IMG/VR virus record: IMGVR_UViG_3300024259_000016
Coordinates: 50,060-114,059 of that record
Reading direction: 5' to 3' (one strand)
DNA: 64,000 nucleotides
Source: a virus
Made by a program: the position numbers and the translations under genes. Positions 12,124 to 31,543 of this stretch are shown one piece after another. Each line of letters opens with the position of its first letter. The first letter of the stretch is position 1. The notes under the pieces were generated by a model. It was not told where the DNA came from, ran no database searches, and saw nothing but the letters and a program-made list of their open reading frames with translations.

Positions 12124-12145
12124 CCCCTTCCCCCCCTCCCCCCTT

Positions 12146-12880
12146 ATGCCCCGACAACCGGCCTCGATTTATCTATACCAAGGGGACATGTTTGATGTCC
12201 TTCCTTACCTGGTGCGTGCCGGGTTGGACCTGCAGTCCATCTTCACTGATCCCCCCTATTCCGATGTAACCTGTGATGGCCACAACAAAGGAGCCTCTGG
12301 CGTAGAGGGGCGGGGAGTTATTGAGTACTCGAGCTGGGGGGCGGAGGAGGCCCGTCGGTTCTGTCGAGAGATTGCTGTATTGGCACATGGATGGGTTGGG
12401 GTGCTGACTGACGACATTCTGGCTGCTGTGTTCCGTGAGTATCTGAAGAAGCCTGTTGCAGACGGGGGGGCTGGTCGGTACAGCTTCGCACCGGTACCCT
12501 GTGTTGTCCCTGCCAGCCGGGTCCGGTTCCAAGGAGATGGGCCCCCTTGTGAATCCCACTACCTGGTGGTGGGCCGCCCGAAGCAGGACAGGTTCGTCGG
12601 AGGCTGGTCCCCGCGGGGATACTATATCGGGCATCGGGAGGAACCCTTGAAAGTCCTGGGGGGCAAACCCTTGTCCTTGATGGTCCCGATCGTGAGGGAC
12701 TACTACTCCAGGGGGGCTGGTGGGTTCGTTTGTGATCCGTGCCTCGGTAACGGCCAGACCTGCATTGCTTGCTCAATATCGGGAATCCCGTCAGTGGGGA
12801 TCGAGATGAGTGAGGAGAACCTGGACCTGGCGTATCGCCGATGTTTGGAACATGGTCTCCCTGTTACACTGGTCACCTAA
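12146..12880 (+). CDS. Orphan DNA N6-adenine/N4-cytosine methyltransferase (beta-class motif order)
   Basis: Catalytic TDPPY precedes GKP and the SAM-binding-like VCDPCLGNGQT...GIEM. Confidence 0.8.
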   Translation: MPRQPASIYLYQGDMFDVLPYLVRAGLDLQSIFTDPPYSDVTCDGHNKGASGVEGRGVIEYSSWGAEEARRFCREIAVLAHGWVGVLTDDILAAVFREYLKKPVADGGAGRYSFAPVPCVVPASRVRFQGDGPPCESHYLVVGRPKQDRFVGGWSPRGYYIGHREEPLKVLGGKPLSLMVPIVRDYYSRGAGGFVCDPCLGNGQTCIACSISGIPSVGIEMSEENLDLAYRRCLEHGLPVTLVT

Positions 12881-13877: not shown

Positions 13878-14435
13878 CTACGGGACGGAGGCGGGAGTCG
13901 CGGCGCTCTCTGCCGGCGCTGGGTCGGGTGTTGGGCACACCGGGCAGACCTTATCCGGGCACTCCAGCAGGCCGGCGAAGAACAGGCACCACGACTGCTC
14001 CATGCTCATGGGGTCGGGCCACTTCTTGAGGCACGCAGCCCCGGCCTTGTCGGCCCCCTTGGCAAGCAGGTCGGCCTTCACTCCCTGGGCGATGTTGGTG
14101 AGCATCGGGCTGGGCCTGAAGCCGTCGCACCCGTTGAGGGTCACCAGGGCGATGAGGACGCCGGCCGCAATGACGAACATACGCACCGACTCACCGAGCT
14201 GGACGTATCCGCCCTCCTTGGACGCGGCGGCGCCGATGGCCGTGGCCGCCCTGATTCGCCCGAAGATTGCGAGGCCTCCGGTGATAGTCATGAGCAGGGT
14301 TTTGAGCCATGCGGGCAGGTAGGGGTCGAGCACGCCGGTCATCTCGTGGGTGGCCCCCTGCGCGATAGTCGCCAGGGCTGCCAGGATGGTGAGACTCAGA
14401 TACCAGGGCTTGGCCCCGTTTGTTTCCTTGGTCAT
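13878..14435 (-). CDS. Holin-like membrane protein with C-terminal lipoprotein-like segment
   Basis: KPWYLSLT-TM...TM-AIFGRIRA, then a third hydrophobic stretch ending in lipobox LNGC; AGGAG SD. Confidence 0.6.
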   Translation of the reverse strand: MTKETNGAKPWYLSLTILAALATIAQGATHEMTGVLDPYLPAWLKTLLMTITGGLAIFGRIRAATAIGAAASKEGGYVQLGESVRMFVIAAGVLIALVTLNGCDGFRPSPMLTNIAQGVKADLLAKGADKAGAACLKKWPDPMSMEQSWCLFFAGLLECPDKVCPVCPTPDPAPAESAATPASVP

Positions 14436-15247
14436 GATTCTCCTCCTAGTACCTTGCGGCACCATGTTGTCGAACGTGGATTATACAACCCCCAGGGGCA
14501 CCTCTTGCAAGCGGGGATATTGGGCTTGGCTTCGCACTGACGGCGGGACCGGACCAGCAGACGTGCCGCCTCGGCCGCGTTCACGTAGAAGTCCTGCAGC
14601 GCCTCCCTGAAGCGGTCGCCCCCGCGGGTGTGTACATCCAGGGCGCGAACCTGCCAGGGGCCGACGTCTGCCTGCTTGCCGTCTCGGCGCACCACCATGC
14701 GGCACCGACTCTCGGCCTTACATACCTTCCAAAGCAGTCCACGGGGCAGGTCACGGGCTCGCTCTAGGGCACGGATGTAGGCCCGGCGTTCGGACCTCGC
14801 CGCCTCGGCTTCAGCAGGTCTGCACCCCGTCCTGAAGGCGAAGAAGGCCACCGCCGCAACGATCATGAACAACAGGCCCACAGCCCATACTGGCAACAGG
14901 CCCTTGCGTGGTCCGGGGATGACGTCCAGTTCCGCCAGTGCCAGGTCGACTAGGTTGTCCATCATTTCTTCAGTAATACCTGGGGCCTCAACCACCTTCT
15001 CACTGCAACCGTTCGGGCAGATGGCACGGGCGGGCTGACGGCGCGGGTCCCCGCCCTCGTTGCCGCGCACCCGGTCCGGGTCCCAGTAGCGCACCTTGAT
15101 TTGCACAGGGGGCCGCGGTGGCTTGCCGCACCCGCAGGAGAGCTCCACGTCGGCCCATACGGCATAGGTCCCCTTGGTTGGGTCATGCGGGTTCATCTGT
15201 GGCGGGTGGATTTTGTAGACGTGGAGGACTTGAAAGAGAGTGGGCAT
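14432..15247 (-). CDS. Membrane-anchored lytic transglycosylase (SLT/lysozyme-like)
   Basis: Central TM helix then LPRGLL...AES (catalytic Glu), GPWQV, NAAEAARLL, YN. Confidence 0.7.
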   Translation of the reverse strand: MPTLFQVLHVYKIHPPQMNPHDPTKGTYAVWADVELSCGCGKPPRPPVQIKVRYWDPDRVRGNEGGDPRRQPARAICPNGCSEKVVEAPGITEEMMDNLVDLALAELDVIPGPRKGLLPVWAVGLLFMIVAAVAFFAFRTGCRPAEAEAARSERRAYIRALERARDLPRGLLWKVCKAESRCRMVVRRDGKQADVGPWQVRALDVHTRGGDRFREALQDFYVNAAEAARLLVRSRRQCEAKPNIPACKRCPWGLYNPRSTTWCRKVLGGES

Positions 15248-15678
15248 TATCTGCGCCTGCGCGGCCTGTACTGCCCGCGGCTGTTCTTCTCCACGAGCGC
15301 GTCCATTTTGATGTTCATCTTACTGCGCCACAGATCGGCCTTGTGGCTCTCGTCTTTGATCAACCCTTTTACCTCAGCCACATCGTCCTTGTGATTCTCC
15401 CGGGTGACGTAGGATTCAAGGGCGTTGGTGATGGTCGGGTGGGATTCCTCAATTGGTGGGGCCCTGTGGGCGGTCATCGCTGCGGCGTCTTTCTTCTCCA
15501 CCGCATCATCAAACCACTTCTGCCCAGCGATAAACCAACCCAGGACAAGGACGCCGCTGAACAGGAGCGACCCCAGGAGTTTGATTGTTACCTGTTGTCC
15601 ATAGAACCCAGGTCCGGGTGTGGGGGGAAGTGGCTGGGCGTTTACCTGACTAACTTCTTCCATTTCGTCCTTCTCCAT
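15247..15678 (-). CDS. Single-TM protein with coiled-coil C-terminus (lysis accessory candidate)
   Basis: TM LLGSLLFSGVLVLGWFIAG; AGGAGG SD; TAATG coupling. Confidence 0.65.
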   Translation of the reverse strand: MEKDEMEEVSQVNAQPLPPTPGPGFYGQQVTIKLLGSLLFSGVLVLGWFIAGQKWFDDAVEKKDAAAMTAHRAPPIEESHPTITNALESYVTRENHKDDVAEVKGLIKDESHKADLWRSKMNIKMDALVEKNSRGQYRPRRRR

Positions 15679-15744
15679 GCGCCCTCCTGGCGCCGCCCGC
15701 AGTGACTGCGCCGTCCCGGGCGCGGTGCCGCACTCTCGCCCTTG

Positions 15745-15972
15745 CTACTGGATCTCCCACGCCTCGTCAAACCCGGGGTAGTCCTTGGTCCTGGTGGGTG
15801 GCCTGAACGTTGAATGGGTCTCGTTTCCATCCACCACCACGGCATAGATCCACCCATCCTCTGGTGCTGCAACAGGAGGGGTTCCGCGCACGTCGCCCTT
15901 TTTGCAGACCTCGTACTTGGTGGACCGCTTGAATTTCTTCCCGGTCGTTCGCCTCTTCAGTTTCTTTGCCAT
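15745..15972 (-). CDS. Small basic hypothetical protein
   Basis: GGGGA SD; operon packing. Confidence 0.65.
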   Translation of the reverse strand: MAKKLKRRTTGKKFKRSTKYEVCKKGDVRGTPPVAAPEDGWIYAVVVDGNETHSTFRPPTRTKDYPGFDEAWEIQ

Positions 15973-15981
15973 TGGGTTCCC

Positions 15982-17244
15982 CTACAGATTGGCCAGATAC
16001 AGACCGCGAGTCTCGCAGGTCACGGTTCCTGACCCGGTCGCGTTCAGGCACTTGAAGATTACCGACGGATTGATGTTCATGTCTGCCACGGCGACGGTCT
16101 TGGCCGTGGTGTGGACAGCCCACCCGGTAGCCCCTGGAAGCCCAGGATTAGAGCCGGCTGCGTTTCCTGAGTAGAATGCCTTAACCACTCCAGAGATTGG
16201 GTCGTAAATCATTCCAATCCAGAATGAATCATCGATGGTCGCGTTGGATAGCGTTGTGGTGTCCCCGTTCTCGGTGATAGTAAGCTTCCACGCGCCACCA
16301 GTCCGCTCCTGGAGAACGCCGACGTATTTGGCGAGACCGACAGGGGCAACGTACATCGCGAAGTATGTATCGTTTGCTGATCCGAGTTGCGTGACGTGGC
16401 ACCAGCACGCAACGGGCCGCGTTGGGATGGATAGTTGCAATTCAGGTGCCGCCGCTGCTCCGTGAGTATGCGCCCATGTGTACTTGGAACCGTCGGCGGT
16501 GATGGTGTAGCCGCTGCCAACCTGCTGAGTCCATGCCGTGACGATCGGGTTGGCGGTGCAGTCGTCGGAGATGCCCTGTTTGGCTACGCCGCCGTCCAGG
16601 ATGATTGTGCCCTGGTCGGTGTTGAACGGGGCGGCGGGGGCCTGAACCGCCGTGTCCGCCGTGGCCCCCTGCGCAGCCGTAGCGAAAAACCCCTCGCTCC
16701 TCAACGCAGCGTTGCCGAGTGCCACGGCTGCCACCCCCCCGGCGGAAGTTTTCAGGTATCCGGACAGCCCCGTGGTATCGATCTTGTCGTGCAGCACACC
16801 CTCGGCGAGTTGGCCGGTTCCGTCCAGGGAGGCGTACCCGCCGGCAGCACCCTTGTTGGCCGTGTCTTCGATGACCCCAGTTGTGCCATGGGTAGTAGTG
16901 AGTGCAGCATGGACCGAGACGGCGTTGGCCAACTCAGCCGCTGTTGTCACCGTGACCCCGATGATCGCTTCGAGCTTGCCCTCTGAATTGAGATCAGCGG
17001 TAGTCAGGAAAGCGGCAATCGCTGCGCCCAGTTCCGCTGTGGAGGTGAGGGTGACACCAGTGATCGCCTCAAGCTTGCCCTCTGTGTCTAGATCTGTACT
17101 TTGGAGGTACGGGATCAAGGCAGCCACCAGCTCGGCGTTGGAGGCCATGGCCTCACCAACAGCTGTCTCGAGTTGTGCCTGAGAAGTGATGGTTGTCCCC
17201 CCACCCCCTCTGCCCCTGCTGAATCCGCCATCGTAATCGGCCAT
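15982..17244 (-). CDS. Putative fibre/spike-like virion protein with C-terminal beta-sandwich
   Basis: Ala/Gly/Thr-rich; duplicated DLxxEGKLEAIxGVT unit; KGAAGGYASLDGTG fibre-type motif; aromatic beta-rich C-terminus. Confidence 0.6.
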   Translation of the reverse strand: MADYDGGFSRGRGGGGTTITSQAQLETAVGEAMASNAELVAALIPYLQSTDLDTEGKLEAITGVTLTSTAELGAAIAAFLTTADLNSEGKLEAIIGVTVTTAAELANAVSVHAALTTTHGTTGVIEDTANKGAAGGYASLDGTGQLAEGVLHDKIDTTGLSGYLKTSAGGVAAVALGNAALRSEGFFATAAQGATADTAVQAPAAPFNTDQGTIILDGGVAKQGISDDCTANPIVTAWTQQVGSGYTITADGSKYTWAHTHGAAAAPELQLSIPTRPVACWCHVTQLGSANDTYFAMYVAPVGLAKYVGVLQERTGGAWKLTITENGDTTTLSNATIDDSFWIGMIYDPISGVVKAFYSGNAAGSNPGLPGATGWAVHTTAKTVAVADMNINPSVIFKCLNATGSGTVTCETRGLYLANL

Positions 17245-17262
17245 CAGAATCTCCCTATACTG

Positions 17263-17631
17263 CTATCCGTGGTTCAAGTAGAACTCAATGTTGGCCACAT
17301 TGGCAGGACCAACCAAACCCAAGTGGGTGCACCGGGGTGACAGCAGGAAGCCTCGTTCGTATCTCTGTGCCGGCGCTGGGGAATCCCACCCAACTCGCAG
17401 GGCCCACTTCCCGTTGAGGTAGGCGTACAGCTCCAAGGCTTTGGCACCGGCCACAGCCACATCGTAGCCGACTGAGCCTCCGTCGTAGATGGCCTTCTGC
17501 TTCGGGAGCTCCACGACGTGCGTCAGGCTGGCGGGGAACGCCTCGGTCAGCAGGGCTGCGTAGTTGACATGCATCTGGGCCTGCGCCAAGACGATGATGG
17601 AACCATGAGGGTACAAGACATTTCCGGGCAT
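17263..17631 (-). CDS. Hypothetical beta-rich protein (possible virion protein)
   Basis: GGAGG SD; GC3-biased codons. Confidence 0.65.
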   Translation of the reverse strand: MPGNVLYPHGSIIVLAQAQMHVNYAALLTEAFPASLTHVVELPKQKAIYDGGSVGYDVAVAGAKALELYAYLNGKWALRVGWDSPAPAQRYERGFLLSPRCTHLGLVGPANVANIEFYLNHG

Positions 17632-17759
17632 GGCGGTGACAGCCTCCGGTGAGGGGTTCAGTAGATATTGCTACCTACAGTAGCGCGGGGGGTGGGGCTG
17701 GGGCAAGGACTACGGGATGGGGGGTGTGACAGAGTGTGTCGCCGGTGTGCCAGAATGTG

Positions 17760-18335
17760 TCAGGCAGCAGGTTTGTGGGCCATCAGGTTCAAGGAGATGT
17801 TTTCCTGGCAGGCATAATCTTGACCCTGCCAGATCGCAGGAATGGATACTGCGTCCCAGGTTTGTATGTCGATGAAGTCTGCTTGGAGGAGGACCTTGGC
17901 TAGTTTCTCCCTTGTGAAGCACCACTTGTGACGGTCCCAGTCAGGGGTTGTGGATAGGCAAGGCCCAAACAAGGGATAGTCAGGCTCCGGGCCAAAGTAT
18001 TCCGGGTCTTCAGGGGAGGTGAGAACACAGCCCAGGAGGACCTTCCTGAGATCAGGGACAGCAAGCCTGAGGATCCCCCCGGGGATCAAGGCCTGTCGTA
18101 GTTTGACCAGCAGAGCCGGAGCCAGATCCGGATATACATGCTCGAGGACATGACTCATGTAGATCTCAGAGAAGTGCCCGAGGGGTAGGTCATCAGCCAT
18201 GATGTCCACTGCGAATCCTGCAGGGGACTGGCTGAGTCGTCCATCCGTATTGGTATATCCGACCAGGTCTTTACCCCCGCACCCGAGCTGGAGCTTGCTG
18301 CCCCGGAGAACCTGATTGAGTCTCGACGGAGGCAT
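17760..18335 (-). CDS. Class I SAM-dependent methyltransferase (Methyltransf_11-like)
   Basis: LQLGCG, SHVLEH, LIPGGILRLAVPD. Confidence 0.9.
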   Translation of the reverse strand: MPPSRLNQVLRGSKLQLGCGGKDLVGYTNTDGRLSQSPAGFAVDIMADDLPLGHFSEIYMSHVLEHVYPDLAPALLVKLRQALIPGGILRLAVPDLRKVLLGCVLTSPEDPEYFGPEPDYPLFGPCLSTTPDWDRHKWCFTREKLAKVLLQADFIDIQTWDAVSIPAIWQGQDYACQENISLNLMAHKPAA

Positions 18336-19291
18336 TACCGTTGGGGGATGCGCTGGTGCATGACGTCGAGAATGTCTGTTCGGGCGAAGCCGGCAGCTCC
18401 TGATGCGACGAGGGAGGGGACTTTGTCCTCAGCGGAACCGATGAACCAGCCGCGGCCGTCAAGTAGGTCCATCTGCTGGCAGTTTTTGAATCCGACCTCC
18501 TGCATGATCTGAAGCCAGGTGTTGCCGGTCGGGATCCACCAGTTCCAACCTACCTGGGAGGGCCCCCGGTACTGAGCGTGGGGGTAGAACTTGTCAGGCA
18601 GGGTCATCGTCTCGAACAACAGCACCCCGCCTGGGCGGAGCATGAGACGGAGGATGGCCAGGGCGCACGCTGGGTCTGAGCAGTGGTAAAGCACTCCCGG
18701 ACAGTAGATGACGTCGTAGGTGGCCGACGGGTCCAGCAGGGATGCCTTGGGCATGTCGTACAGGCTGCAGCCGTAGACATTGTCACCCCGGATAGAAAAG
18801 ACCTCCTTGTGGCGTTTGGACCAGCTTGCAAAAACCGGGACCTCTTCGACCACATCGACTTCAGCCGCCCCGAAGCCATCGAGGAGCATGACCTCGTAGC
18901 CGCACCAGGCCCCCACTACGCAGCATCTATGGCCCTGGGACAGGGCACGTAGGTCAATCCCGGTCTCTCTGAGCCTGGCCGCATTCAAGAGTCCCCGGGT
19001 GTGACGGGCACCGGCCGCACCTTGGGGGCCCATGGCGCCGATTACCTGAAGGCCTTCTCCGTAGTCATGGTCCTGGTCCCAGGCGTAGCAGTCCAGGGCC
19101 GTTCCCTGGTTAGCCGCCCAGGTCTTGACCCATACATCGGTTGGGTTCTGGTCCACGAAGTCAGAGACTTCCTGTTTGAAAGCTTGGGCTTGTGCATCAC
19201 CGTGTAAGTCCCGGATCCGCTGCAGGGAATACCCCCCCATGATCTCCTGCTCGATGGCCACTCCTACTTCGTTCAGACTTCCTTGTCTCAT
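18335..19291 (-). CDS. Class I SAM-dependent methyltransferase (DUF1698/CmoB-like motifs)
   Basis: VVGAWCGY, YDVIYCPGVLYH, LRPGGVLLFET, NWWIPT. Confidence 0.85.
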   Translation of the reverse strand: MRQGSLNEVGVAIEQEIMGGYSLQRIRDLHGDAQAQAFKQEVSDFVDQNPTDVWVKTWAANQGTALDCYAWDQDHDYGEGLQVIGAMGPQGAAGARHTRGLLNAARLRETGIDLRALSQGHRCCVVGAWCGYEVMLLDGFGAAEVDVVEEVPVFASWSKRHKEVFSIRGDNVYGCSLYDMPKASLLDPSATYDVIYCPGVLYHCSDPACALAILRLMLRPGGVLLFETMTLPDKFYPHAQYRGPSQVGWNWWIPTGNTWLQIMQEVGFKNCQQMDLLDGRGWFIGSAEDKVPSLVASGAAGFARTDILDVMHQRIPQR

Positions 19292-19317
19292 TGCCTTGCT
19301 CCTCGATTATGGAGTTG

Positions 19318-20061
19318 TCAGTTCTTGATCCAAAAAACAGGTCCCCCACCTTCGGGGATCGGGATGATCTCTGGGTCCTCTTGCCGTATCTCGAGGTATT
19401 CCTCGATGGCCTTACGACAGCCCCGCAATGCGTAGTCGTCGATGATGACAATCCCACCAGACTGGACCAAGTCGATGAGGGGCCAACACGCCTTGGTTGA
19501 CTCATACAGATCTCCATCAAGCCTGAGCAGGGCGATCTGACGAATTGGGGGGTGGCCGATTTTATCCCCCGAGTGGATGGCCTCACGTATGGTTTGCTGA
19601 AACCACCCCTCGTACAGTGTGAATATCTGGGCAGGCATCCCCCTGGCCTCGAGGTTTTGATGCACCGCCGCCGCAGAGCATGCGCTGATACCAGAAGTCA
19701 CAAGGGCGCCATCCTTGCCATGGGAGAACAAGGTGTTGTCAATGTTGTCTGTGTCTTCCGGTCCCGCATGAGGGATCCCTTCGAAGCTGTCAAGCAGGTG
19801 AAAGTGGTGCTGAGGACTCGGTCCGGCTCCGGCGCCGCGCCACATGGCGATGACCTGTCCACCTGCGAACACACCGCACTCCACGATGTCACCAGCAATA
19901 CGGTGAGCAGCAACATGCCGGGCCAGTGCCCAGGAGGATAAGAGGGTGGGTCTGGTAGACAGACACAGGGGGCCGACGTTGGAGATGAGCCAGTTCTGTT
20001 CCTCCTCAGGAGGCCAGTTGTCAGAGAGGATCGAGGGCAGCTCTTTTGAATTAGAATTCAT
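19318..20061 (-). CDS. TylF/MycF/NovP-family sugar O-methyltransferase
   Basis: GDIVECGVFAGG, DSFEG, GWFQQT, LRLDGDLYEST, GGIVIIDDY. Confidence 0.92.
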   Translation of the reverse strand: MNSNSKELPSILSDNWPPEEEQNWLISNVGPLCLSTRPTLLSSWALARHVAAHRIAGDIVECGVFAGGQVIAMWRGAGAGPSPQHHFHLLDSFEGIPHAGPEDTDNIDNTLFSHGKDGALVTSGISACSAAAVHQNLEARGMPAQIFTLYEGWFQQTIREAIHSGDKIGHPPIRQIALLRLDGDLYESTKACWPLIDLVQSGGIVIIDDYALRGCRKAIEEYLEIRQEDPEIIPIPEGGGPVFWIKN

Positions 20062-20638
20062 AGTTTGCCTTGAGAAGTTCATCCCCAAAGAGTTCCTCCA
20101 CACGAAGGATCATCTTCGGTTCAGTGTAATAAGACCGATACCCTGGTCGACGGGTGGACCTATTAATATGGGGGAGGGCAGGCATGTCGGTACCAGCCAG
20201 CTCACAAAATGCCTTCAGGTCATTGGCGAGGATTTCAAATCGGAGAATTTTGTCAACGATGCAGGTCCCTTGCACATCCATGAGGAATTCGTGCATGTGC
20301 AATGGGCGACTGGTTGTACTCCCTGTTGATTCTGGTTCAGACAGCCAATGGGTTGGGCATCCATGGGTGACCCAGGCTTCAAAAGAGAGATGCTGATAGA
20401 TGTGGGGCGCAATGTTGGCACCCCGGCAAAAGTGGTAGAAAGAGACCAGTCGGTCGAAGGGGTTACGGATGATCGAGAAGGACAAGCCTTCTCTCCAGGT
20501 TTTCTCCCCAACCCTGTCGCGTATGGTCCGTGCTGGGAGATGATTGTGAGTTTCATCTACCAGACCTTGAAATGCTTGATAGATGCTTCGTGTCCCGGTC
20601 CTGGGGATGGAGACGAAGAACAGTTTTGGAGGACTCAT
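20051..20638 (-). CDS. Sulfotransferase (Sulfotransfer_2, carbohydrate sulfotransferase-like)
   Basis: 5'-PSB loop FVSIPRTGTRS, 3'-PB motif IRNPFDRLVSFY, RFE and HINRS. Confidence 0.88.
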   Translation of the reverse strand: MSPPKLFFVSIPRTGTRSIYQAFQGLVDETHNHLPARTIRDRVGEKTWREGLSFSIIRNPFDRLVSFYHFCRGANIAPHIYQHLSFEAWVTHGCPTHWLSEPESTGSTTSRPLHMHEFLMDVQGTCIVDKILRFEILANDLKAFCELAGTDMPALPHINRSTRRPGYRSYYTEPKMILRVEELFGDELLKANYEF

Positions 20639-20642
20639 ATTA

Positions 20643-21356
20643 TCAGATTCCTCTGATGTGCCACTGTCGAATGTCGTCCTGTGGGGTCGGGTAGGTTGAG
20701 CCATAGAGGAACGTGTTGGGAGGCAGGGGTTTGAGGCCCAGACGCTTGGCGAGTACTGTCATCGCAGGCATGTCATGGCGGTGACCTTGTACTCTCTCGT
20801 CGTCGCTGACAAAGCCCTGGGCCTTTCGCCAGGGCCCACACACTACTTCCGGATTCTGCATCATTTCACACATGCCCTTCAGGAAGGCATTCCCTGATGG
20901 ATGGCTGGGGTTAACCCCCCAGATTCCGCCAGCGACGATAGGCTCAGCCATAGCCTGTTCTCGAGTCCAACCAAAAACCTTGAGTGCCCGGTCACTCGTC
21001 CAGTGCCCCATACAGCCACTCTCCTGGACAAGATAGACTCCGGTGCGTTCCAGCTCCCTAAAGACGGGCTCCAACGACCTACCTGGCCAGACGGAGGAAT
21101 CCAGCCAGATGACCCCTGCTGGGGCCACATCTTTGTTTGCTTGGATAATGGTGGCAGCCTGATCTACGGCATAGGTTTTGAAGGCGTAAGGGAGTTGCTG
21201 GTGTGGGGGACAACCTGCGGGGAGAGTGTGTCTCCAGAGCATTTTCATGCCTCGGTAGTCCACACGGTCAAGTTCGAGACTCAACCGAGACACACCTGAA
21301 GCGTAGTTGCCGTTAACACCAATAGAGATGATGGCTCGATGACTGGGGGGAATCAT
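20643..21356 (-). CDS. Putative GT-A fold glycosyltransferase-like protein
   Basis: PYAFK, VIWLDSS (DxD-like), HRHD motifs; lies in the GT cluster. Confidence 0.6.
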   Translation of the reverse strand: MIPPSHRAIISIGVNGNYASGVSRLSLELDRVDYRGMKMLWRHTLPAGCPPHQQLPYAFKTYAVDQAATIIQANKDVAPAGVIWLDSSVWPGRSLEPVFRELERTGVYLVQESGCMGHWTSDRALKVFGWTREQAMAEPIVAGGIWGVNPSHPSGNAFLKGMCEMMQNPEVVCGPWRKAQGFVSDDERVQGHRHDMPAMTVLAKRLGLKPLPPNTFLYGSTYPTPQDDIRQWHIRGI

Positions 21357-21362
21357 TAGTGT

Positions 21363-24300
21363 CTACTCCCTACCAAGGATGGTAGTTCCACGGTGATGGC
21401 GAACGATGGCGAGGAACATCTCTACGACAGCCTCCCAGGACCACCAACGATAGGCCAGAGCTTTTACGTCTCTGCGCATCTGCTCCTTGAGTTTGTCCAT
21501 CTCTGGATCCTGTCCGGGGGGCTTGGCCCATGTTTTGGCCAGGGCCAGAAGTTCGGAAGGCGTCCCCCAACACAAGGCATGCTTTCCGTCGACAATTCCC
21601 CAATGCTCTTGTCCCTTGAACCGTTGCAAGGCGATGCATGCACTGGCCGCCCCAAGTCTATTGAGGCGGTCCGAACTGTAAGCCGTTAGGTCCGGGGTAA
21701 TCGAGGCGTTCACACTCAGGGCCGCAAGGTTGTAGACTGCGGGACAAGCTGCTCGGGGAATTGAGCCGAGTGTTTGGTCTGGTGTCCAACCGCTGCCGAA
21801 GATGAAGATGCCCTGCGGGTCGTGATTGAAAAGGGCTTCGATGCTGGACGTTCGAAGGTCGTAGTCGTAGGTTCTGGACCCGATGAAAACCGACGACCCT
21901 TGGAGTACTTCTTGGCTGACCTTCATCGGGATTCGATCTGGATCTGTCTGGTCATCGATCCCGATGTCGTAACCCACCTGGAGGTACCCGGGATGAGGGA
22001 CTTCGTGCTGGGCAAGCATACGGCAGTAATCGATGTTGCTCTGGAGGCATAGGTCTGCGGCGCGGCCCGTGTCCAACATCCAACGGGTTGGCCGGGGATA
22101 CCATTCCTGTCGAACATCCCCATTCCATGTTGCGATGACAGCTCCTGGGGCGCACAACTTTCTGAGCTGCTGGATGAACTCCGCTGTCCCCAGGAATCCT
22201 TCATCGTCCTGAATCTGGTACCAGACCAATGTAGGCCGCAGCTGTCGTGCAGCCTCGAAGATCGCCTGAGCCCGAACCTTTGGGCCAGCTGCTGCAAGGT
22301 CTCCACGAAGCCGAAGAACCTCTACTGTTTTGCCTATACGGCCGAAGGCCTCACGTAGGCCGATCTGGAGCTCAGCCTCGTGGGCCAGGGGTAGAAGTAG
22401 GAGTCGCTCTTCAGGCCCTGCCGGAATAGGAGAACGCCTGGGCATCTTCCCTGGCTCCGGGACGAGAAGTCGGGGCCACCAATCCCCCGGTGGGGTTGCG
22501 TCCAGGCGGGTAACCAGTCTGTCCAAAGAACCATCCCCATGTTTGGGGCCATACGCTCTGACGTTCTTTCGTCGGAGTCCGTCAGGAACCTGGTGGTCGA
22601 TAGCCCGGATCTCCCCGGGAAAGTATTGTGCCCGACGTCCAGCTTTGACCAGTGCAGCTCCCTGCAAGGTGTCACCGGCGTATGTCCTATCGATACGATA
22701 TTGACTGTCCCCCCAGAAACCTCCGATGAGCGTGGCCACATCCTCCAAGGCATTCCGTCTGGTCAAGGCGATATTGGGGTGGGCCGACTCGTTGAGGATC
22801 GACCTGAGTGCACCGGTGTGGTGGGGGGCAATCCAGTTGTCCCCCCCATCCGTTGAAAACTCGAAGCATACCTGGTCCAAACCTGGATCTTGGTCCAGAC
22901 GATCTACTGCCTTACGTAGGGACCCCGGGACCAACTCCACATCGTCATTGGCTTGGAATACGTACTGCCCACAGCTTGCCTCGTAGGCGAGATTGAAGGC
23001 ATCAATAGCCCCGGTCAATCCGCCGTGGACCACCCTGCAATCAGGTTGTTCTTTGAGCCATTCCAGAGTCCCATCTGTACTGCCTCCGTCACTCAGGATG
23101 AACTCAAATGGGCATGGGTCCATAACCTTGAAGTCTGCCCGGATGCTCCGTACCATACGCTTGAGGCTCTCCAGCCTGTTATATGTCCCGGAGATGACGG
23201 AGATCCGGACAGGTCCTGGCTGGGTCGGTCCTTTGAAGATGAAGGGGAGGTGGGCCTGAGGGACACGTCCATCACCATCGAGAAAACCTGTGTACTCTTG
23301 CCGTCTCCTGAGTTGATCACGCTCCGTCAGAAGCTTACGCATCAATTCTGAATCTTCTGGGCTGCGACTCGGAACCTGATTTACCACAACAGGGATAGTT
23401 GCAGATCCTTCGGGGGCCGAAGGGGGGGGAACATGGTGGTGCGCTGGGCTCCCCCGGTGGGCTGCTATTCGAAGCGCCTCACCAAGACACTCCCGCCAGT
23501 TCGACATGACATGGTGCCAGGTCCATTTATTACGGATGGCTGCCGCGGCCCGGTCCGCCATGTCCTGCAGCTCTTGACGCGGCCTGCGCCTGAGGTCCTC
23601 GATGACCGCACACAGATGGTCGACGGTCCGTTCAGGGAGCAAACGGCCGAAGTCCTCATTGATGGCCAGCTGGGCTGAGCCCACCTTGGTGGAGGTAGGG
23701 ATGCAACCGCAGGACATACCCTCGAAGATCGGGAAGGGGCCCCCTCCCTCTCCCTTGGACATACAGACGATGACCCCGATCTGGTTGTAGAACTCGGGCA
23801 TCTTGTAATGAGGCCAGGCTTGTTGTCCAGGCTGGGCGGTTGAGCTGTCGAGGATTGCGTGGGGGACCTTACAACGTTCGACTGCCTCCCGAAACATCCC
23901 TAGTCCCTTGTAGTCCTCCATGCCACCGACGGCTGGATTCATCCGTTGGCTGTTGCCCGTCCACCCGAAGACCAGGTCCCCTTTTGGTAGGGGGGTCTGG
24001 GCAAACAGGTCCGGATTGACACCGTTTGGAGTCACGATGATTGGGGGGAGGGCCTGCCCCTTGGCGAGCCTGACGATGTCATCCCGGACCATCTCGTTCC
24101 CGACTGCCAGGATGTCTGTGCAGCGCAACGTAGCCAAGAACTTGGGGCTGAGTCTCCCATTCGGGCCAAGGAAACTCATATGGTCGTCCACGCAAGACAC
24201 CACGGCACCGGGTCGCATAACCGATTTGAGCCTGGGGGTATCGAAGTGCCACAACGAGATCAGGACGCTGTCTGGTTCCACCCTCTTGTCCATGTCTCGG

Positions 24301-24410
24301 CCGAGACAGATGTTCACTCCATCCACCATGTCCTGAAAGCCCCTGCACATCTCCCGGGCCTTGGCATGGAATACAGAATCAGGCAGATCGATGGTGAGGT
24401 AGGCTTTCAT
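21363..24410 (-). CDS. Three-domain glycosyltransferase: GT4-like (GT-B) + GT2 (GT-A) + CgeB/Glyco_trans_1_2-like (GT-B)
   Basis: PNGVNPDLF, KGL, EGGGPFPIFE; ISVISGTYNR, DGGSTDGT, NDD; YNLAALSVN...YSSDRL. Confidence 0.9.
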   Translation of the reverse strand: MKAYLTIDLPDSVFHAKAREMCRGFQDMVDGVNICLGRDMDKRVEPDSVLISLWHFDTPRLKSVMRPGAVVSCVDDHMSFLGPNGRLSPKFLATLRCTDILAVGNEMVRDDIVRLAKGQALPPIIVTPNGVNPDLFAQTPLPKGDLVFGWTGNSQRMNPAVGGMEDYKGLGMFREAVERCKVPHAILDSSTAQPGQQAWPHYKMPEFYNQIGVIVCMSKGEGGGPFPIFEGMSCGCIPTSTKVGSAQLAINEDFGRLLPERTVDHLCAVIEDLRRRPRQELQDMADRAAAAIRNKWTWHHVMSNWRECLGEALRIAAHRGSPAHHHVPPPSAPEGSATIPVVVNQVPSRSPEDSELMRKLLTERDQLRRRQEYTGFLDGDGRVPQAHLPFIFKGPTQPGPVRISVISGTYNRLESLKRMVRSIRADFKVMDPCPFEFILSDGGSTDGTLEWLKEQPDCRVVHGGLTGAIDAFNLAYEASCGQYVFQANDDVELVPGSLRKAVDRLDQDPGLDQVCFEFSTDGGDNWIAPHHTGALRSILNESAHPNIALTRRNALEDVATLIGGFWGDSQYRIDRTYAGDTLQGAALVKAGRRAQYFPGEIRAIDHQVPDGLRRKNVRAYGPKHGDGSLDRLVTRLDATPPGDWWPRLLVPEPGKMPRRSPIPAGPEERLLLLPLAHEAELQIGLREAFGRIGKTVEVLRLRGDLAAAGPKVRAQAIFEAARQLRPTLVWYQIQDDEGFLGTAEFIQQLRKLCAPGAVIATWNGDVRQEWYPRPTRWMLDTGRAADLCLQSNIDYCRMLAQHEVPHPGYLQVGYDIGIDDQTDPDRIPMKVSQEVLQGSSVFIGSRTYDYDLRTSSIEALFNHDPQGIFIFGSGWTPDQTLGSIPRAACPAVYNLAALSVNASITPDLTAYSSDRLNRLGAASACIALQRFKGQEHWGIVDGKHALCWGTPSELLALAKTWAKPPGQDPEMDKLKEQMRRDVKALAYRWWSWEAVVEMFLAIVRHHRGTTILGRE

Positions 24411-24471
24411 TATAGGATGCTCCGGAACTCTGAGGGGGGATTAAACTGAGGGAGTGTTCGGGTGCTGAAGT

Positions 24472-24834
24472 TTACGGAGCGGGAGTGGCTGTGAAGTTGG
24501 CCACACCGTGTGCACCACCGGCCGAGTCGTACTGGATGAGGATCATGTCGCCGTTGTGCTGATCCTGGATCTGGAACTCGTCGACCTGCAGGCCCTCGGT
24601 GGCGGAAAACTTCATGTAGGGACCCTCGCCGTAGTACTCGCCCGGCCCGGCAACCGCGGCGTGAGAGCCGAGGTTCAGGGTGTCGGTGTCGATGATCGCC
24701 AGGATCGCATTGACCGCGGTGCGGATGGTGTTGAAGCGACTGACCAACGAACCAGGGTAACGGCCGGTGAAGATCAGCGCCCCCTTGTTGAAGGCGTTGT
24801 TTGCAAGCAGGGGAAGCGGGGTAATGGCGCCCAT
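24472..24834 (-). CDS. Hypothetical protein, candidate abundant virion protein
   Basis: AAGGAG SD; strongly GC3-biased codons like the capsid gene. Confidence 0.7.
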   Translation of the reverse strand: MGAITPLPLLANNAFNKGALIFTGRYPGSLVSRFNTIRTAVNAILAIIDTDTLNLGSHAAVAGPGEYYGEGPYMKFSATEGLQVDEFQIQDQHNGDMILIQYDSAGGAHGVANFTATPAP

Positions 24835-24954
24835 GATGTAGGTTCTCCTTTATCAGGACAGTCGGCCGGAGCCGGTCCTGACTCGATGACCGTCCTACCC
24901 TAAGCCGGAGCCGGGCAGGTACGGCGAGATGGGGTTTGACTTCTCGCATTGAGC

Positions 24955-25239
24955 CTACTTCACCCGGACATCGATGGTCAATAAGGACGGCAGACTTTTG
25001 AGTTCATCGGGGATGGTTGTACCCCCCAATATGAGCAGGCCCGGACTCGAGGCCTCCTGGGTTTGGTAACGGGCCTGGAGGGTACAGAGCCTCTTGTGCT
25101 CAGTGACAACCTGAGTAAAGGCGCGCTTCATACTCATGCCCGTTCTGGAGCCGGTGGACATCTCGATGATCTCGAGGAGTATCTCACGAGCGCCTGGCTC
25201 AACCTCGATGGTACAACCTCGTTTACGCTTGTGTGCCAT
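24955..25239 (-). CDS. Putative ribbon-helix-helix regulator
   Basis: Basic N-terminus, strand CTIEV, helix PGAREILLEII, helix SMKRAFTQVV; first gene after the promoter. Confidence 0.5.
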   Translation of the reverse strand: MAHKRKRGCTIEVEPGAREILLEIIEMSTGSRTGMSMKRAFTQVVTEHKRLCTLQARYQTQEASSPGLLILGGTTIPDELKSLPSLLTIDVRVK

Positions 25240-25251
25240 AACTGGGCTTGA

Positions 25252-25348
25252 ACGGTAGCAAGCAAGTCGGTGAGAGTCAACAGAGTTTGCGGGGGTACTG
25301 ACGATTCTGTGACACGGGGTTGCCGGGGGGGATTTGTGGTGGTAACGT
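25252..25348. promoter_or_regulatory. Divergent sigma70-like promoters (glycan operon leftwards, portal operon rightwards)
   Basis: Minus strand TTGACT-17-TACCGT; plus strand TTGCCG-17-TAACGT ending just before portal ATG 25357. Confidence 0.55.
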
Positions 25349-25356
25349 GGCTGGTC

Positions 25357-27267
25357 ATGAGGGATCTCAAAGACCGAATCAGTACGGCACGTGGGGGCAA
25401 GCAGGCGGTGTCCCCAGATGGTGCAACAGGGATGCCCAGCGGGACCCGAGAGGTTAGTGCCGGGGATATGGATGCCGGGGTCGCGGAGGAGTCTGGGCCC
25501 CCCGTCAACATCCAGCGGGTAGGAATGCAGACTTCAGCAATGGAACCTGCTGAGACTGCAGAGCCGGCGGAATGGTATGGCTCCTACGCTGACGGACGCC
25601 GCTACATCTCCCCCATCCAGTCCGACACTGATGCCGATCTGCTCATCCGGAACTCCTGGGTAATTTCCGGTGTGATCTCGGCCTACCTGGACAATGTGTA
25701 TGGGCGGCGCCCCTATGCAGTGCCCAAGGCTGACCCGATGACCCCGGAGGGTAAGCAGACCATTCGGCAGTGGATGCGGATGCAACGAGTCAAGGCCGGG
25801 AGCACCGATAAGTCCTGGCTCGACATCAAGGATTCTGCCCTCGACAAGGTGTGTAGGCAGATCGATGCACGAGTAGAGCTGGAGTCTGCCCTGGTCGACG
25901 GGTTTTTTGCGACTTGTCAGGTGGACCTCCCATACGATCAGATGGCCTCCTTGGCCGGCTACGATCTCGAGGTGAGAGGGCGTACCTTCTTGGAAGTCCT
26001 GCGGGATGCTCCTGGTGGCAAGCCTGTTGGGATGGTGTGGTCCCCTGCCCGTTTCATCAGAGTTGAGCCCCCAAGCCCTGCGGTCGGGTTCTCTGATCTG
26101 ATGGTCCACAACCCATTGGTTTACGAGAAGAACTTCAGGTTTCGTAGGTTCGTAGGGTGCTTCCAGTCTGCAAGCGCCAATGCTGTGAGTCCGGTGGCCT
26201 TCTTTAAGGACTTTGGTGACCCGCGGGTGCGTAGTCGCAGTGATGGACGATACTACGAGACCATGGACCAGCTGCTTGCCCGAGAAATGGGGGAGGAAGT
26301 TGGGGGGTACGGGGGAAACAAGCAGCGCCGCTGGCCTGTCGGGACACCATCCACTGAGATCGTCCGGATGGTGCATACGGCGCCCTGGGCTGCCCTGACG
26401 GGGATGGCCCCTTGGTACTCCACCAAGACAGAGCTCCTCGGGATCCGAGAGTGCGCCCAGGAGAATCGGGGCTTGCTGTCGGGCCAGTTGGTCCCTCTGC
26501 TCCTCTGGATGATCCACGGGGGGCAGCGCATCACCCCGGACCAGACAGAGCTGTGGCAAAAGGATTTGCAGGCTGCTGTCAAGCCTGGCGAACGTTCGGT
26601 CGTCATCATGCAGGTCATGTCCGACGCAATGGCTCGAGCAGGCAGTCGGGGGGCTGGGGAGCCCAAATCATCCATTGTCAACACCCGGCCGGCTCAGCAG
26701 GAAGATGCCCTGGCCATGAAGTACACCGAGCAGAGCTACCGGACTGCTCTTCGGGCCTACCGGATGAACCGGGCAGCCCTCGGGGATTTCGAGGGGATGA
26801 CCCAGCAGGAAATCCAGGAGGCCCTTCGGTATACTGAAACGCAGGTCTATGGTCCTCGTGGTGAGTCCTGGTGTGCCGGATTGCAACCTATTGTGGATGA
26901 CCTGGGTTTGTTGGCTACTCGACTCGAGCGGCCAACCCGGGCTTCTCTGGCCTTGGGGGAGTTGTCTGAGATCCTCGAGCGGTTGGGGAAAGAGAACTTT
27001 ATTACCCCTGAACAGGCCTGGCCTACGGTACGCCGAGCCATGAAGGATCTGGGGAGGATTGTCCAGGACAAGGGGCAGTGGAGTAAGTATCCCCGGCGGG
27101 TTGTTGACGGATTCATGATGGCTCGTGTCCCGCAGGCCGCGGGTAAGTTCATGGGTTTGGATGCCAAGTACATGCCTCCTATTGAGGCCACCGACAAGAT
27201 GGACGGGAACAATAAGGGTCCGGTTGTACCGGCTCCGGCACCTGTGGAGGACCCCGAAGATGAGTAA
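25357..27267 (+). CDS. Portal protein (PBSX-like)
   Basis: DLEVRGRTFLEVLRD, FFKDFGDPR, EIV...G.APW motifs; first gene of the head module. Confidence 0.85.
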   Translation: MRDLKDRISTARGGKQAVSPDGATGMPSGTREVSAGDMDAGVAEESGPPVNIQRVGMQTSAMEPAETAEPAEWYGSYADGRRYISPIQSDTDADLLIRNSWVISGVISAYLDNVYGRRPYAVPKADPMTPEGKQTIRQWMRMQRVKAGSTDKSWLDIKDSALDKVCRQIDARVELESALVDGFFATCQVDLPYDQMASLAGYDLEVRGRTFLEVLRDAPGGKPVGMVWSPARFIRVEPPSPAVGFSDLMVHNPLVYEKNFRFRRFVGCFQSASANAVSPVAFFKDFGDPRVRSRSDGRYYETMDQLLAREMGEEVGGYGGNKQRRWPVGTPSTEIVRMVHTAPWAALTGMAPWYSTKTELLGIRECAQENRGLLSGQLVPLLLWMIHGGQRITPDQTELWQKDLQAAVKPGERSVVIMQVMSDAMARAGSRGAGEPKSSIVNTRPAQQEDALAMKYTEQSYRTALRAYRMNRAALGDFEGMTQQEIQEALRYTETQVYGPRGESWCAGLQPIVDDLGLLATRLERPTRASLALGELSEILERLGKENFITPEQAWPTVRRAMKDLGRIVQDKGQWSKYPRRVVDGFMMARVPQAAGKFMGLDAKYMPPIEATDKMDGNNKGPVVPAPAPVEDPEDE

Positions 27268-30592: not shown

Positions 30593-31543
30593 ATGGCTGT
30601 CATCGAAGGCACTGACCAGCGGCCGGTCTACGCCAAGAAGGCCGACGTGGAGATTGCTCAGTTCGCCGCGGGTGGCGAGCTGGTGCGTGAGCAGGTGCGC
30701 GACTACTTCCTGGTGGCCATCGCCGGCCAGGCAATGATGGAGAAGGTGCGTAACGTCATCATGCCTCGGGACCAGGTCGAATACCCGATCATGAAGCCGT
30801 TCGGCGAGGATGTGTGGCATCCCGTCGCCGAGTACCAGTCCCTGGCTGAGGGTCAGCGCGTGCGCCCGACCTTCGACCAGACCATCTTCACCGCCAAGGA
30901 GATCATGTGCGAGGTGCGTTACCCCAAGCACGCGCTCCAGGTGCAGGTGGAAGAGGGCCGGTTCAAGGACACCCTGCTGACCTACCTGGGTCTGCACACC
31001 AAGGGCGGCTGGGAGAACCTGATCATCCAGGGCGACACCGCCGCGGGCGCCACTCCGTTCCTCCGTATGTTCAACGGGATGATCGCTGGCGTGACGAGCT
31101 ACTCGTTCGATGCGCTGGGTGCCACGCTGGGCAGTTCCCTGCTCCGTACGGCCCGCTTCACGCGGCCCGTCCAGTACCGCGTGGAGGACAAACAGAATCT
31201 CGGCGTGTTCTGCACCGAGGAGACTCAGGACGGCTACGACGAGGAGCTGCGCAACCGGAACACCGAGCAGTCTGACGCCCGCCTGATCAACGGCGAGTCG
31301 TACCCGGCCTTCAAGAACCGGCCGGTCATCGATGTCCCCCGCTGGCCCAGCGCCGGTGGCCAGTGTGACGCGCTGGACTGCAACCCGGGCCGCTTCGTGT
31401 TCGGGCTCCGTGAGGCCATCGGCGTGGAGACCGAGTGGGACCCCCGCCAGCGTTCCCTGTCGGTCATCATGAATGCCTGGATCAGCGAGGGCTGGATCTT
31501 CGAGGAGATGGAGGTCAAGATCGAGAACCTGGCCAGCACGTAA
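30593..31543 (+). CDS. Major capsid protein
   Basis: 316 aa, strongest codon bias; GGELVREQ...F, ENLIIQGDT...FNG; position after scaffold. Confidence 0.88.
   Translation: MAVIEGTDQRPVYAKKADVEIAQFAAGGELVREQVRDYFLVAIAGQAMMEKVRNVIMPRDQVEYPIMKPFGEDVWHPVAEYQSLAEGQRVRPTFDQTIFTAKEIMCEVRYPKHALQVQVEEGRFKDTLLTYLGLHTKGGWENLIIQGDTAAGATPFLRMFNGMIAGVTSYSFDALGATLGSSLLRTARFTRPVQYRVEDKQNLGVFCTEETQDGYDEELRNRNTEQSDARLINGESYPAFKNRPVIDVPRWPSAGGQCDALDCNPGRFVFGLREAIGVETEWDPRQRSLSVIMNAWISEGWIFEEMEVKIENLAST

What the first reader, a model, noticed from the sequence alone, without database searches (positions are those of the whole stretch)
15982..25239. Phage pathway for a sulfated, O-methylated glycan, embedded among candidate virion proteins
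Seen: a tightly packed minus-strand operon diverging from the portal promoter. Order: RHH-like gene, a strongly codon-biased 120-aa protein, a three-domain glycosyltransferase, a GT-A-like protein, a PAPS-motif sulfotransferase, a TylF-family O-methyltransferase, two more SAM methyltransferases, then a 122-aa protein and a 420-aa fibre-like protein. Established: TylF/MycF/NovP methylate sugar hydroxyls, Sulfotransfer_2 enzymes sulfate carbohydrates, and some mycobacteriophages glycosylate their virions with GTs encoded near structural genes. No nucleotide-sugar, PAPS-synthesis, flippase/polymerase or base-hydroxymethylase gene is in the window, and the enzymes have no obvious TM or signal segments. 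Inference: up to four GT sites build an oligosaccharide on capsid or fibre proteins in the cytoplasm, then cap it by sulfation and methylation. I do not know of a characterised sulfated, methylated phage virion glycan. Alternatives are DNA hypermodification or host-surface conversion.
Basis: partly seen in the sequence, partly recalled or inferred. Interest (0 to 1): 0.85.

Follow-up and report, generated by a model that had tools for sequence, protein, structure and literature searches.

The report
Phage sugar-coating cassette with sulfotransferase
An uncultured 114-kb tailed phage carries, next to its head genes, soluble enzymes able to build, methylate and sulfate a sugar chain; the chain most likely ends up on a virus-particle protein, which would be a sulfated glycan of a kind not yet described for any phage.

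Summary
Window 15982-25239 (minus strand) is a tight run of ten genes. Its enzymes are a 1015-aa protein with three glycosyltransferase (GT) domains, a 237-aa GT-A-fold protein, a sulfotransferase with both PAPS motifs, a TylF-family sugar O-methyltransferase and two further SAM methyltransferases. None has a membrane segment. The 120-aa protein ranks 4th of 147 ORFs in structural-gene codon usage. The "RHH" and "fibre" labels could not be verified; both AlphaFold models failed.

The whole 114-kb genome lacks nucleotide-sugar and PAPS-synthesis genes and the known entry enzymes for DNA glycosylation. Relatives fuse the small methyltransferase into the GT, and fuse the 318-aa methyltransferase to an NDP-sugar epimerase. 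Related GT2-plus-methyltransferase cassettes sit beside or inside head modules in three other phage contigs (L004, L005, L007). L007 also has a sulfotransferase, acquired independently.

Best reading (about 0.55): cytoplasmic glycosylation of a virion protein, capped by methylation and sulfation. The acceptor is unknown; the 120-aa protein is my first candidate.

The closest known systems are chlorovirus capsid-glycan enzymes and mycobacteriophage virion glycosylation. This scan has noted similar cassettes on other DNA many times.

The parts
24955..25239 (-). 94-aa first gene of the leftward operon; function unknown (RHH-like label unverified)
   Evidence: ORF; no Pfam, PHROG or PDB hit. TTGACT-N17-TACCGT lies just upstream (read by eye; below the scan threshold).
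24472..24834 (-). 120-aa abundant-protein candidate (p120); my first candidate for the glycan acceptor or a virion accessory protein
   Evidence: SD AAGGAGA upstream. GC3 0.82 and CAI rank 4 of 147. Small family of 113-120 aa proteins (A2). The 57% homologue lies on a 109,690-bp contig, the same length as the contig carrying the 56% GT homologue. AF2 failed.
21363..24410 (-). 1015-aa three-domain glycosyltransferase: GT-B/GT4-like (about 1-330), GT2 (about 400-620), CgeB-like GT-B-type C-domain (about 650-1015)
   Evidence: Pfam. Homologues and alignment A1, with invariant DGGSTD and NDD motifs. Free-standing C-domain homologue in L004 hits PF13524 at 1.6e-9.
20643..21356 (-). 237-aa GT-A-fold protein, probable fourth glycosyltransferase
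   Evidence: No sequence-family hit. ESM Atlas: viral clusters score 0.98; structure TM 0.82 to a DUF1647 cluster, 0.77 to a Glyco_transf_34-type cluster, 0.76 to a GT2-like cluster.
20051..20638 (-). PAPS-type sulfotransferase (longest ORF reaches 20704; start at 20638 is likelier)
   Evidence: Sulfotransfer_2 2.3e-6 and phrog_3347 3e-11. PRTGTRS and RNPFDRLVS motifs. SD before 20638. Lowest CAI in the cassette, rank 137 of 147. Only two distant homologues.
19318..20061 (-). TylF/NovP/MycF-family sugar O-methyltransferase (longest ORF reaches 20103)
   Evidence: PF05711 2.7e-28. PDB hits NovP and MycF at 5e-15 to 5e-13. 39.5% identity to M. avium MtfB. Its start overlaps the ST stop.
18335..19291 (-). 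318-aa class I SAM methyltransferase
   Evidence: Methyltransf_23 6e-10. The homologue in L002 is fused to an NDP-sugar epimerase/dehydratase.
17760..18335 (-). 191-aa SAM methyltransferase
   Evidence: Weak Pfam hit. The homologous domain is inserted inside the GT in P0003-P0005 and L002, and lies next to it in L055 and L004.
17263..17631 (-). 122-aa protein of unknown function
   Evidence: ORF with GC3 0.76 and CAI rank 21; no hits.
15982..17244 (-). 420-aa fibre-like protein: helical repeat N-part, beta-rich C-domain
   Evidence: Motifs GYASLDGTGQL and AQGATADTA. The C-domain is conserved in its only relative, P0026. AF2 pLDDT 37. No phage or PDB hit.
13878..15972 (-). Co-directional downstream genes: 75-aa protein, 143-aa single-TM protein, 271-aa TM plus lysozyme-like protein, 195-aa holin-like/lipobox protein (lysis cassette)
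   Evidence: KD profiles and sequences; SLT_3 E 0.0068.
25270..27267 (+). Portal-like protein, first gene of the rightward structural module
   Evidence: Similarity to the L004 portal, which hits Pfam Phage_portal at 8e-19.
30593..31543 (+). Major capsid protein; ends ...NLAST, with no C-terminal extension
   Evidence: phrog_1623 3.8e-31. tblastn to annotated capsid proteins. C-terminus.

Best explanation
The cassette is a host-independent, cytoplasmic glycan-assembly line that decorates a phage particle protein.

Proposed mechanism (inferred): using host NDP-sugars, the three GT domains of the 1015-aa enzyme and the 237-aa GT-A protein add sugars stepwise to an acceptor protein. The TylF-type enzyme and the two class I methyltransferases O-methylate sugar hydroxyls with SAM. 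The sulfotransferase adds sulfate from host PAPS. The methyl and sulfate groups probably act as terminal caps.

The acceptor is not identified. Candidates, in my order, are the abundant 120-aa protein encoded just upstream of the GT, the 420-aa fibre-like protein, and the capsid protein.

Shown: the enzyme families, their solubility, the fusions and the gene order. Inferred: the protein target, the order of steps and late expression.
For: 1. Enzyme set.
2. No TM segments in the enzymes.
3. No flippase, polymerase or lipid-carrier parts among the ORFs scanned. No sugar-nucleotide or PAPS-synthesis genes in the 114-kb genome, so the donors are host metabolites.
4. Fusions tie the parts into one pathway. 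The MT191 domain sits inside the GT in P0003-5 and L002. The MT318 homologue is fused to an NDP-sugar epimerase in L002.
5. Position: between the lysis genes and the portal, on the strand of the holin-like and lysozyme-like genes.
6. Cassettes built on the same GT2 subfamily lie directly upstream of portal and MuF in L004, downstream of the capsid gene in L005, and between the capsid gene and the head-tail adaptor in L007. L007 also has its own sulfotransferase, FkbM methyltransferase and epimerase.
7. The full GT2 plus C-domain enzyme was found in viral and metagenome contigs.
8. p120 has the codon usage of a major structural gene. It appears to be conserved with the GT in the sister phage.
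9. Precedents: chlorovirus A064R (two GT domains plus a methyltransferase) and A111/114R (three GT domains) glycosylate the capsid protein in the cytoplasm (PMC7826918). [quoted passage not shown]
Against: - No chemistry and no expression data.
- The cassette is on the opposite strand from the structural operon. It is preceded by a sigma-70-like TTGACT-N17-TACCGT, which could mean non-late expression.
- The capsid protein has no C-terminal tail like those glycosylated in mycobacteriophages.
- p120, p122 and fib420 have no recognised virion fold; both models failed.
- No sequence homology to any mycobacteriophage GT.
- The sulfotransferase looks recently acquired, and no homologue turned up on the sister contig, so sulfation may be accessory.
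- The sulfotransferase's acceptor could be something other than the glycan.
Confidence: 0.55

Rival explanations
1. Host-envelope or exopolysaccharide remodelling. The enzymes modify a host glycolipid, LPS, capsule precursor or cell-wall glycan during infection, for example to block superinfection or to keep progeny from sticking to debris.
For: GT, methyltransferase and sulfotransferase sets are typical of bacterial surface-polysaccharide loci. The TylF homologue is 39.5% identical to M. avium MtfB of glycopeptidolipid synthesis. JGI names some family members 'glycosyltransferase involved in cell wall biosynthesis'. The cassette is transcribed away from the structural operon.
Against: No TM segment, flippase, polymerase or lipid-carrier transferase. 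The phage looks lytic, and no integrase-family hit appeared among the roughly 50 of its 147 ORFs that were scanned. In L004, L005 and L007 the equivalent cassettes are inside late head operons, where surface conversion has little time to act. No full-length relative appeared in the prokaryote genome scan.
Confidence: 0.15
2. Glycosylation of a non-virion target: a host protein, a phage non-structural protein, or a free or lipid-linked small molecule (the TylF, NovP and MycF relatives act on natural-product sugars).
For: No acceptor was identified. p120 could be an abundant non-structural protein. The characterised TylF-family members are small-molecule tailoring enzymes.
Against: The genome has no aglycone, polyketide or NRPS genes among the ORFs scanned. 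The recurring head-module context in other phages is unexplained by this reading.
Confidence: 0.15
3. DNA hypermodification: the GT domains build a glycan on a modified base of the phage DNA, which is then methylated or sulfated.
For: Phage GTs can hypermodify DNA with di- and tri-saccharides (10.1101/2023.12.21.572611). The genome holds a PAPS_reduct-domain protein and a B12-radical SAM enzyme of unknown role, and an adenine-type DNA methyltransferase-like gene at 11978-12880.
Against: The whole genome lacks Tet/JBP dioxygenase, C5-cytosine methyltransferase and ThyA-family hydroxymethylase, which are the known entry points. The cassette is 40 kb or more from the replication genes. TylF enzymes and Sulfotransfer_2 have no known DNA role.
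Confidence: 0.07

Closest known systems
Chlorovirus PBCV-1 capsid-glycan machinery (A064R: two rhamnosyltransferase domains plus an O-2 methyltransferase; A111/114R: three GT domains) - PMC7826918
   Same: Virus-encoded, soluble, multi-domain assembly-line GTs, with a methyltransferase fused (as in this family's relatives P0003-5) or adjacent. They act in the cytoplasm before lysis and produce O-methylated sugars on a particle protein.
   Different: That is a giant virus of a eukaryote. Sequence homology was not tested here. PMC7826918 does not mention sulfate (term count 0). The acceptor there is known (Vp54); here it is unknown.
Mycobacteriophage virion glycosylation (Che8, Corndog, Myrna; Freeman et al. 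2023, known here through PMC12363180 and PMC12619734)
   Same: A tailed phage encodes its own GTs that decorate capsid and tail proteins.
   Different: tblastn of the 1015-aa GT against 50,697 phage records found no mycobacteriophage hit. This capsid protein has no C-terminal tail. The primary paper could not be read, so its enzyme inventory was not compared.
Bacterial sugar O-methyltransferases TylF, NovP, MycF and M. avium MtfB
   Same: Clear family membership of the 261-aa protein, including an LDGDLYEST stretch.
   Different: Those enzymes tailor macrolide, aminocoumarin or glycopeptidolipid sugars in bacteria. Here the enzyme is phage-borne with no aglycone pathway.
Spore-surface glycosylation by soluble mother-cell enzymes (B. 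subtilis CgeB-type Glyco_trans_1_2; Bacillus/C. difficile BclA glycans) - from memory, not tested
   Same: A PF13524-type domain. Cytoplasmic decoration of a proteinaceous particle surface, with methylated deoxy-sugars in the BclA case.
   Different: Cellular rather than viral. Only a domain-family resemblance.

Membership tests
TylF O-methyltransferase family (PF05711) | Profile match above the curated cut-off over the catalytic domain | tested here: met
   99.4 bits against a cut-off of 23, residues 61-250. PDB relatives NovP and MycF.
TylF O-methyltransferase family (PF05711) | Metal-binding acidic motif (D...DGD.YEST, recalled from memory) | tested here: inconclusive
   LRLDGDLYEST is present in the sequence. 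I matched it against the family motif from memory only, without a structural alignment.
PAPS-dependent sulfotransferase (Sulfotransfer_2, PF03567) | Profile match above the cut-off | tested here: met
   28.4 bits against a cut-off of 22; phrog_3347 3e-11.
PAPS-dependent sulfotransferase (Sulfotransfer_2, PF03567) | 5'-phosphosulfate loop (P-K/R-x-G-T/S) and 3'-phosphate motif (R-x7-S) | tested here: met
   PRTGTRS at residues 34-40. RNPFDRLVS at 80-88, aligned to the SULT1C3 RNPKDCLVS. An Arg replaces the usual Lys.
GT2 glycosyltransferase (PF00535) | Profile match plus DxD-type acidic motif | tested here: met
   63.5 bits. DGGSTD and NDD are invariant across six homologues.
GT-B glycosyltransferase (Glyco_trans_1_2 / GT4-like) | Profile match above the cut-off; E-x7-E region | tested here: met
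   N-domain: 31.1 bits against a cut-off of 25; the E-x7-E equivalent has one extra residue. C-domain: 14 bits on its own, supported through its L004 homologue at 38.3 bits.
Mycobacteriophage-type virion glycosylation | Homology to the Che8, Corndog or Myrna GTs | tested here: not met
   tblastn of the 1015-aa GT against the phage collection gave only two weak hits, both in an uncultured phage.
Mycobacteriophage-type virion glycosylation | Glycans on C-terminal tails of the capsid and tail-tube subunits | not testable with these tools
   The capsid ends ...NLAST with no extension. The tube ends ...VEFLG. Chemistry is needed.
Phage DNA glycan hypermodification (C5-MT/5mYOX or hydroxymethylase route) | A base-hydroxymethylating or oxidising enzyme encoded in the genome | tested here: not met
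   No Tet_JBP, DNA_methylase (C5) or Thymidylat_synt match in the 114 kb.
Gtr / O-antigen-type seroconversion | Membrane GT, flippase or polymerase | tested here: not met
   The highest 19-residue hydropathy in any cassette enzyme is 1.72, within a SAM-binding fold. No such Pfam families were hit.

The most novel reading that the evidence does not exclude
A tailed phage coats an abundant particle protein with an oligosaccharide that it builds itself, using a chlorovirus-like multi-domain enzyme, and finishes with O-methyl and sulfate groups. That would be the first sulfated glycan on a phage particle. Sulfation would be a recently added, exchangeable cap that changes surface charge, adhesion or recognition.
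Probability: 0.35. Interest if true: 0.8.

Novelty: new variant of a known kind. Interest (0 to 1): 0.6.

Why it matters
Virion glycosylation by tailed phages is established only for mycobacteriophages, where it shields particles from antibodies. If soluble GT, methyltransferase and sulfotransferase cassettes in head-proximal slots really decorate particles, then phage surfaces carry a variable, charged glycan layer. Genome annotation currently ignores this.

Such a layer would bear on adsorption, environmental stability, mucus or particle adhesion, and phage-therapy pharmacology. It would also give a concrete role to phage sulfotransferases, whose function "remains unclear" (PMC10580990).

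The fused three- and four-domain enzymes are also compact candidates for glyco-engineering.

Tried and rejected
- **Close relatives.** None in INPHARED by DNA. Single-protein scans of IMG/VR with the GT, capsid protein, p237 and ST found nothing, nor did a scan with the p120 alignment A2.
- **Sister phage context.** The 109,690-bp sister contig carrying P0002 and P0029 could therefore not be read.
- **Structure.** AlphaFold2 of p120 (4-sequence alignment) and fib420 (single sequence) gave pLDDT 38 and 37. No fold search was possible. The ESM Atlas gave nothing usable for p120.
- **p120 as a paralogue of the 113-aa gene after the capsid gene.** Rejected: BLASTP E 0.13, hhalign probability 0.4%.
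- **p120 matches inside giant proteins (P0030, P0032, P0033).** They look like repeat or composition artefacts.
- **Common origin of the window's and L007's sulfotransferases.** Rejected: only the P-loop aligns, E 0.02. These are analogous, not orthologous, acquisitions.
- **p237 in L007.** No homologue.
- **Promoter and terminator scan.** No more sites than in shuffled sequence.
- **Freeman et al. 2023.** The paper is not held.
- **PAPS_reduct-domain protein.** Could not be assigned to CysH, CysD or DndC type.

Full report
**Setting**

The window is the last 64 kb of a 114,059-bp IMG/VR virus record. Its ends repeat over only 32 bp, which suggests a circular assembly.

The phage looks myovirus-like and lytic. 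Evidence:
- a portal-like gene at 25270-27267
- an XkdF-type protease domain at 27830-29218
- the capsid protein at 30593-31543 (phrog_1623, 3.8e-31)
- a head-tail adaptor, tape measure and baseplate wedge
- a DNA polymerase at 59626-61863
- intein-bearing helicases in the first 50 kb

. It has no near relative among 50,697 isolated phages.

**The observation**

Ten minus-strand ORFs fill 15982-25239, with gaps of 128 bp or less. Family assignments:

| Gene | Result |
|---|---|
| TylF-type methyltransferase | PF05711 2.7e-28; PDB relatives NovP and MycF; 39.5% identical to M. avium MtfB |
| Sulfotransferase | Sulfotransfer_2 above cut-off; phrog_3347 3e-11; both PAPS motifs readable (PRTGTRS, RNPFDRLVS) |
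| 1015-aa protein, N-domain | GT-B domain, PF13524 2.7e-7 |
| 1015-aa protein, central domain | GT2, 3e-17, with invariant DGGSTD and NDD |
| 1015-aa protein, C-domain | about 360 aa; free-standing homologue in L004 hits PF13524 at 1.6e-9 |
| p237 | no sequence-family hit; ESM Atlas model superposes on DUF1647, Glyco_transf_34 and GT2-like clusters (TM 0.76-0.82); its nearest clusters are viral |
| MT318 | class I methyltransferase, 6e-10 |
| MT191 | sub-threshold on its own; homologous to a methyltransferase domain found in relatives |

No cassette enzyme has a membrane segment.

The sulfotransferase probably starts at 20638, behind an AGAGGA. The TylF gene probably starts at 20061, overlapping the sulfotransferase stop, so the genes look translationally coupled.

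The 120-aa gene has a strong SD and GC3 of 0.82. I built a codon index on the capsid gene, its 113-aa neighbour, the sheath and the tube. On that index the 120-aa gene ranks 4th of 147 ORFs, while the sulfotransferase ranks 137th.

Two labels could not be verified. The 94-aa protein gave no support for "RHH". For the 420-aa protein, "fibre" rests only on fibre-like motifs and a modular relative. Both AlphaFold jobs failed.

**What the rest of the genome says**

The complete record has no match to any of these families:
- NDP-sugar epimerase
- nucleotidyltransferase
- ATP sulfurylase
- APS kinase
- Tet/JBP dioxygenase
- C5 DNA methyltransferase
- ThyA-family hydroxymethylase

Its only GT2 domain is the one in the cassette. 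Donors must therefore come from the host, and the known routes into DNA glycosylation are missing.

Immediately downstream of the 420-aa gene, on the same strand, lie four more genes. They are a 75-aa protein, a single-TM protein, a TM plus lysozyme-like protein, and a holin-like/lipobox protein. The leftward transcription unit may therefore end in lysis genes, which suggests late expression but does not prove it. A TTGACT-N17-TACCGT lies before the first gene, and it leaves the timing open.

**Relatives**

The 1015-aa enzyme has a 56%-identical full-length homologue, P0002, on a 109,690-bp contig. The 57% homologue of the 120-aa protein, P0029, lies on a contig of the same length. This is probably one sister phage that keeps both genes. 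In contrast, the nearest relatives of the sulfotransferase (38%) and the 420-aa protein (34%) lie on other, short contigs.

Fusions link the parts:
- In P0003, P0004, P0005 and L002, an MT191-like domain is inserted between the GT4 and GT2 domains.
- In L055 and L004, an MT191-like domain lies next to the GT.
- In L002, the MT318 homologue is fused to an NDP-sugar epimerase/dehydratase.

The GT2 plus C-domain core recurs in L002, L003, L004 and L055-L057, often with an epimerase. A pattern-limited scan of 185,579 prokaryote genomes returned only generic GT2 matches.

**Context elsewhere**

| Contig | Arrangement |
|---|---|
| L004 | GT2, MT191-like plus FkbM methyltransferase, radical SAM, C-domain homologue, an unknown gene and a second GT2 run straight into portal, MuF and then capsid |
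| L005 | an HK97 capsid gene is followed on the same strand by an MT191-like gene and the GT2 |
| L007 (complete 71-kb phage) | between the capsid gene and the head-tail adaptor/Neck1 genes: an Asn-synthase-like gene, a Sulfotransfer_2 gene, GT2, FkbM methyltransferase, a second GT2, another methyltransferase, an epimerase and a further GT |

L007's GT2 belongs to the same subfamily (33-36% identity to family members). Its sulfotransferase is unrelated beyond the P-loop. The pairing of sulfotransferase with GTs next to head genes has therefore arisen more than once.

Notes from this scan report the same theme in at least 165 other genomes. I treat those notes as leads, not as evidence.

**Mechanism and rivals**

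I favour cytoplasmic glycosylation of a virion protein, capped by methylation and sulfation (about 0.55). The chlorovirus enzymes A064R and A111/114R are the best functional analogue (PMC7826918). Mycobacteriophage virion glycosylation is the only tailed-phage precedent (PMC12363180, PMC12619734), and there is no sequence homology to it.

The acceptor is unknown. The capsid protein has no C-terminal tail. The 120-aa protein is my first guess, from its codon usage, its position and its co-conservation with the GT.

Rivals:
- Host-envelope remodelling (0.15). It lacks any membrane machinery.
- Another protein or a small-molecule target (0.15).
- DNA hypermodification (0.07). It lacks every known entry enzyme.

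**Limits**

- The key primary paper was not held.
- Both structure models failed.

Noticed in passing
genome 23779-24819 (-), = L052:3779-4819, about 26 kb upstream of the window: A 346-aa PAPS_reduct-domain protein (2.8e-21) in the same genome as a PAPS-using sulfotransferase. PDB matches are weak and split between APS/PAPS reductases and CysD, so its role (sulfur metabolism, DNA modification or other) is open.
   Followed up: partly
genome 6619-10500 (-) and 15784-17838 (-), = L051: A UvrD-type helicase and a DEAD/ResIII helicase each carry an intein (Intein_splicing; HNH_3 in the first, PT-HINT in the second). Several free-standing HNH endonucleases lie nearby (L052:6278-7852 and 8609-9445).
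   Followed up: no
genome 32461-33705 (-), = L052:12461-13705: A B12-binding radical SAM enzyme of unknown role. L004 carries a small radical SAM gene inside its GT cassette.
   Followed up: no
window 20051-20704: The sulfotransferase has the lowest GC3 (0.54) and codon index (rank 137 of 147) in the cassette, within a 2-kb dip in GC (0.546). This suggests recent horizontal acquisition.
   Followed up: partly
window 13878-14465 (-): A 195-aa protein with two hydrophobic segments followed by LNGC (lipobox-like) and a Cys/Pro-rich tail. It has a very high GC3 (0.85). It may be a holin-spanin-like fusion.
   Followed up: partly
window 31622-31963 (+): A 113-aa gene right after the capsid gene has the second-highest codon index in the genome. 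It is probably a decoration or cement protein and another possible glycan acceptor. It is not related to p120.
   Followed up: partly
window 175-438 (-): An 87-aa ORF has the third-highest structural-type codon index in the genome (0.736). Function unknown.
   Followed up: no
L003:12724-19737 (-): A 2337-aa ORF converges on the GT2 plus C-domain enzyme of this 70-kb phage. It was not annotated because the family searches were exhausted.
   Followed up: no
genome 21230-23245 (+) and L004:7053-8834 (-): A 671-aa protein with no Pfam hit is homologous (21% identity, E 3e-9) to the gene flanking the L004 cassette. No terminase large subunit was identified in either phage, so this is a candidate.
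   Followed up: no
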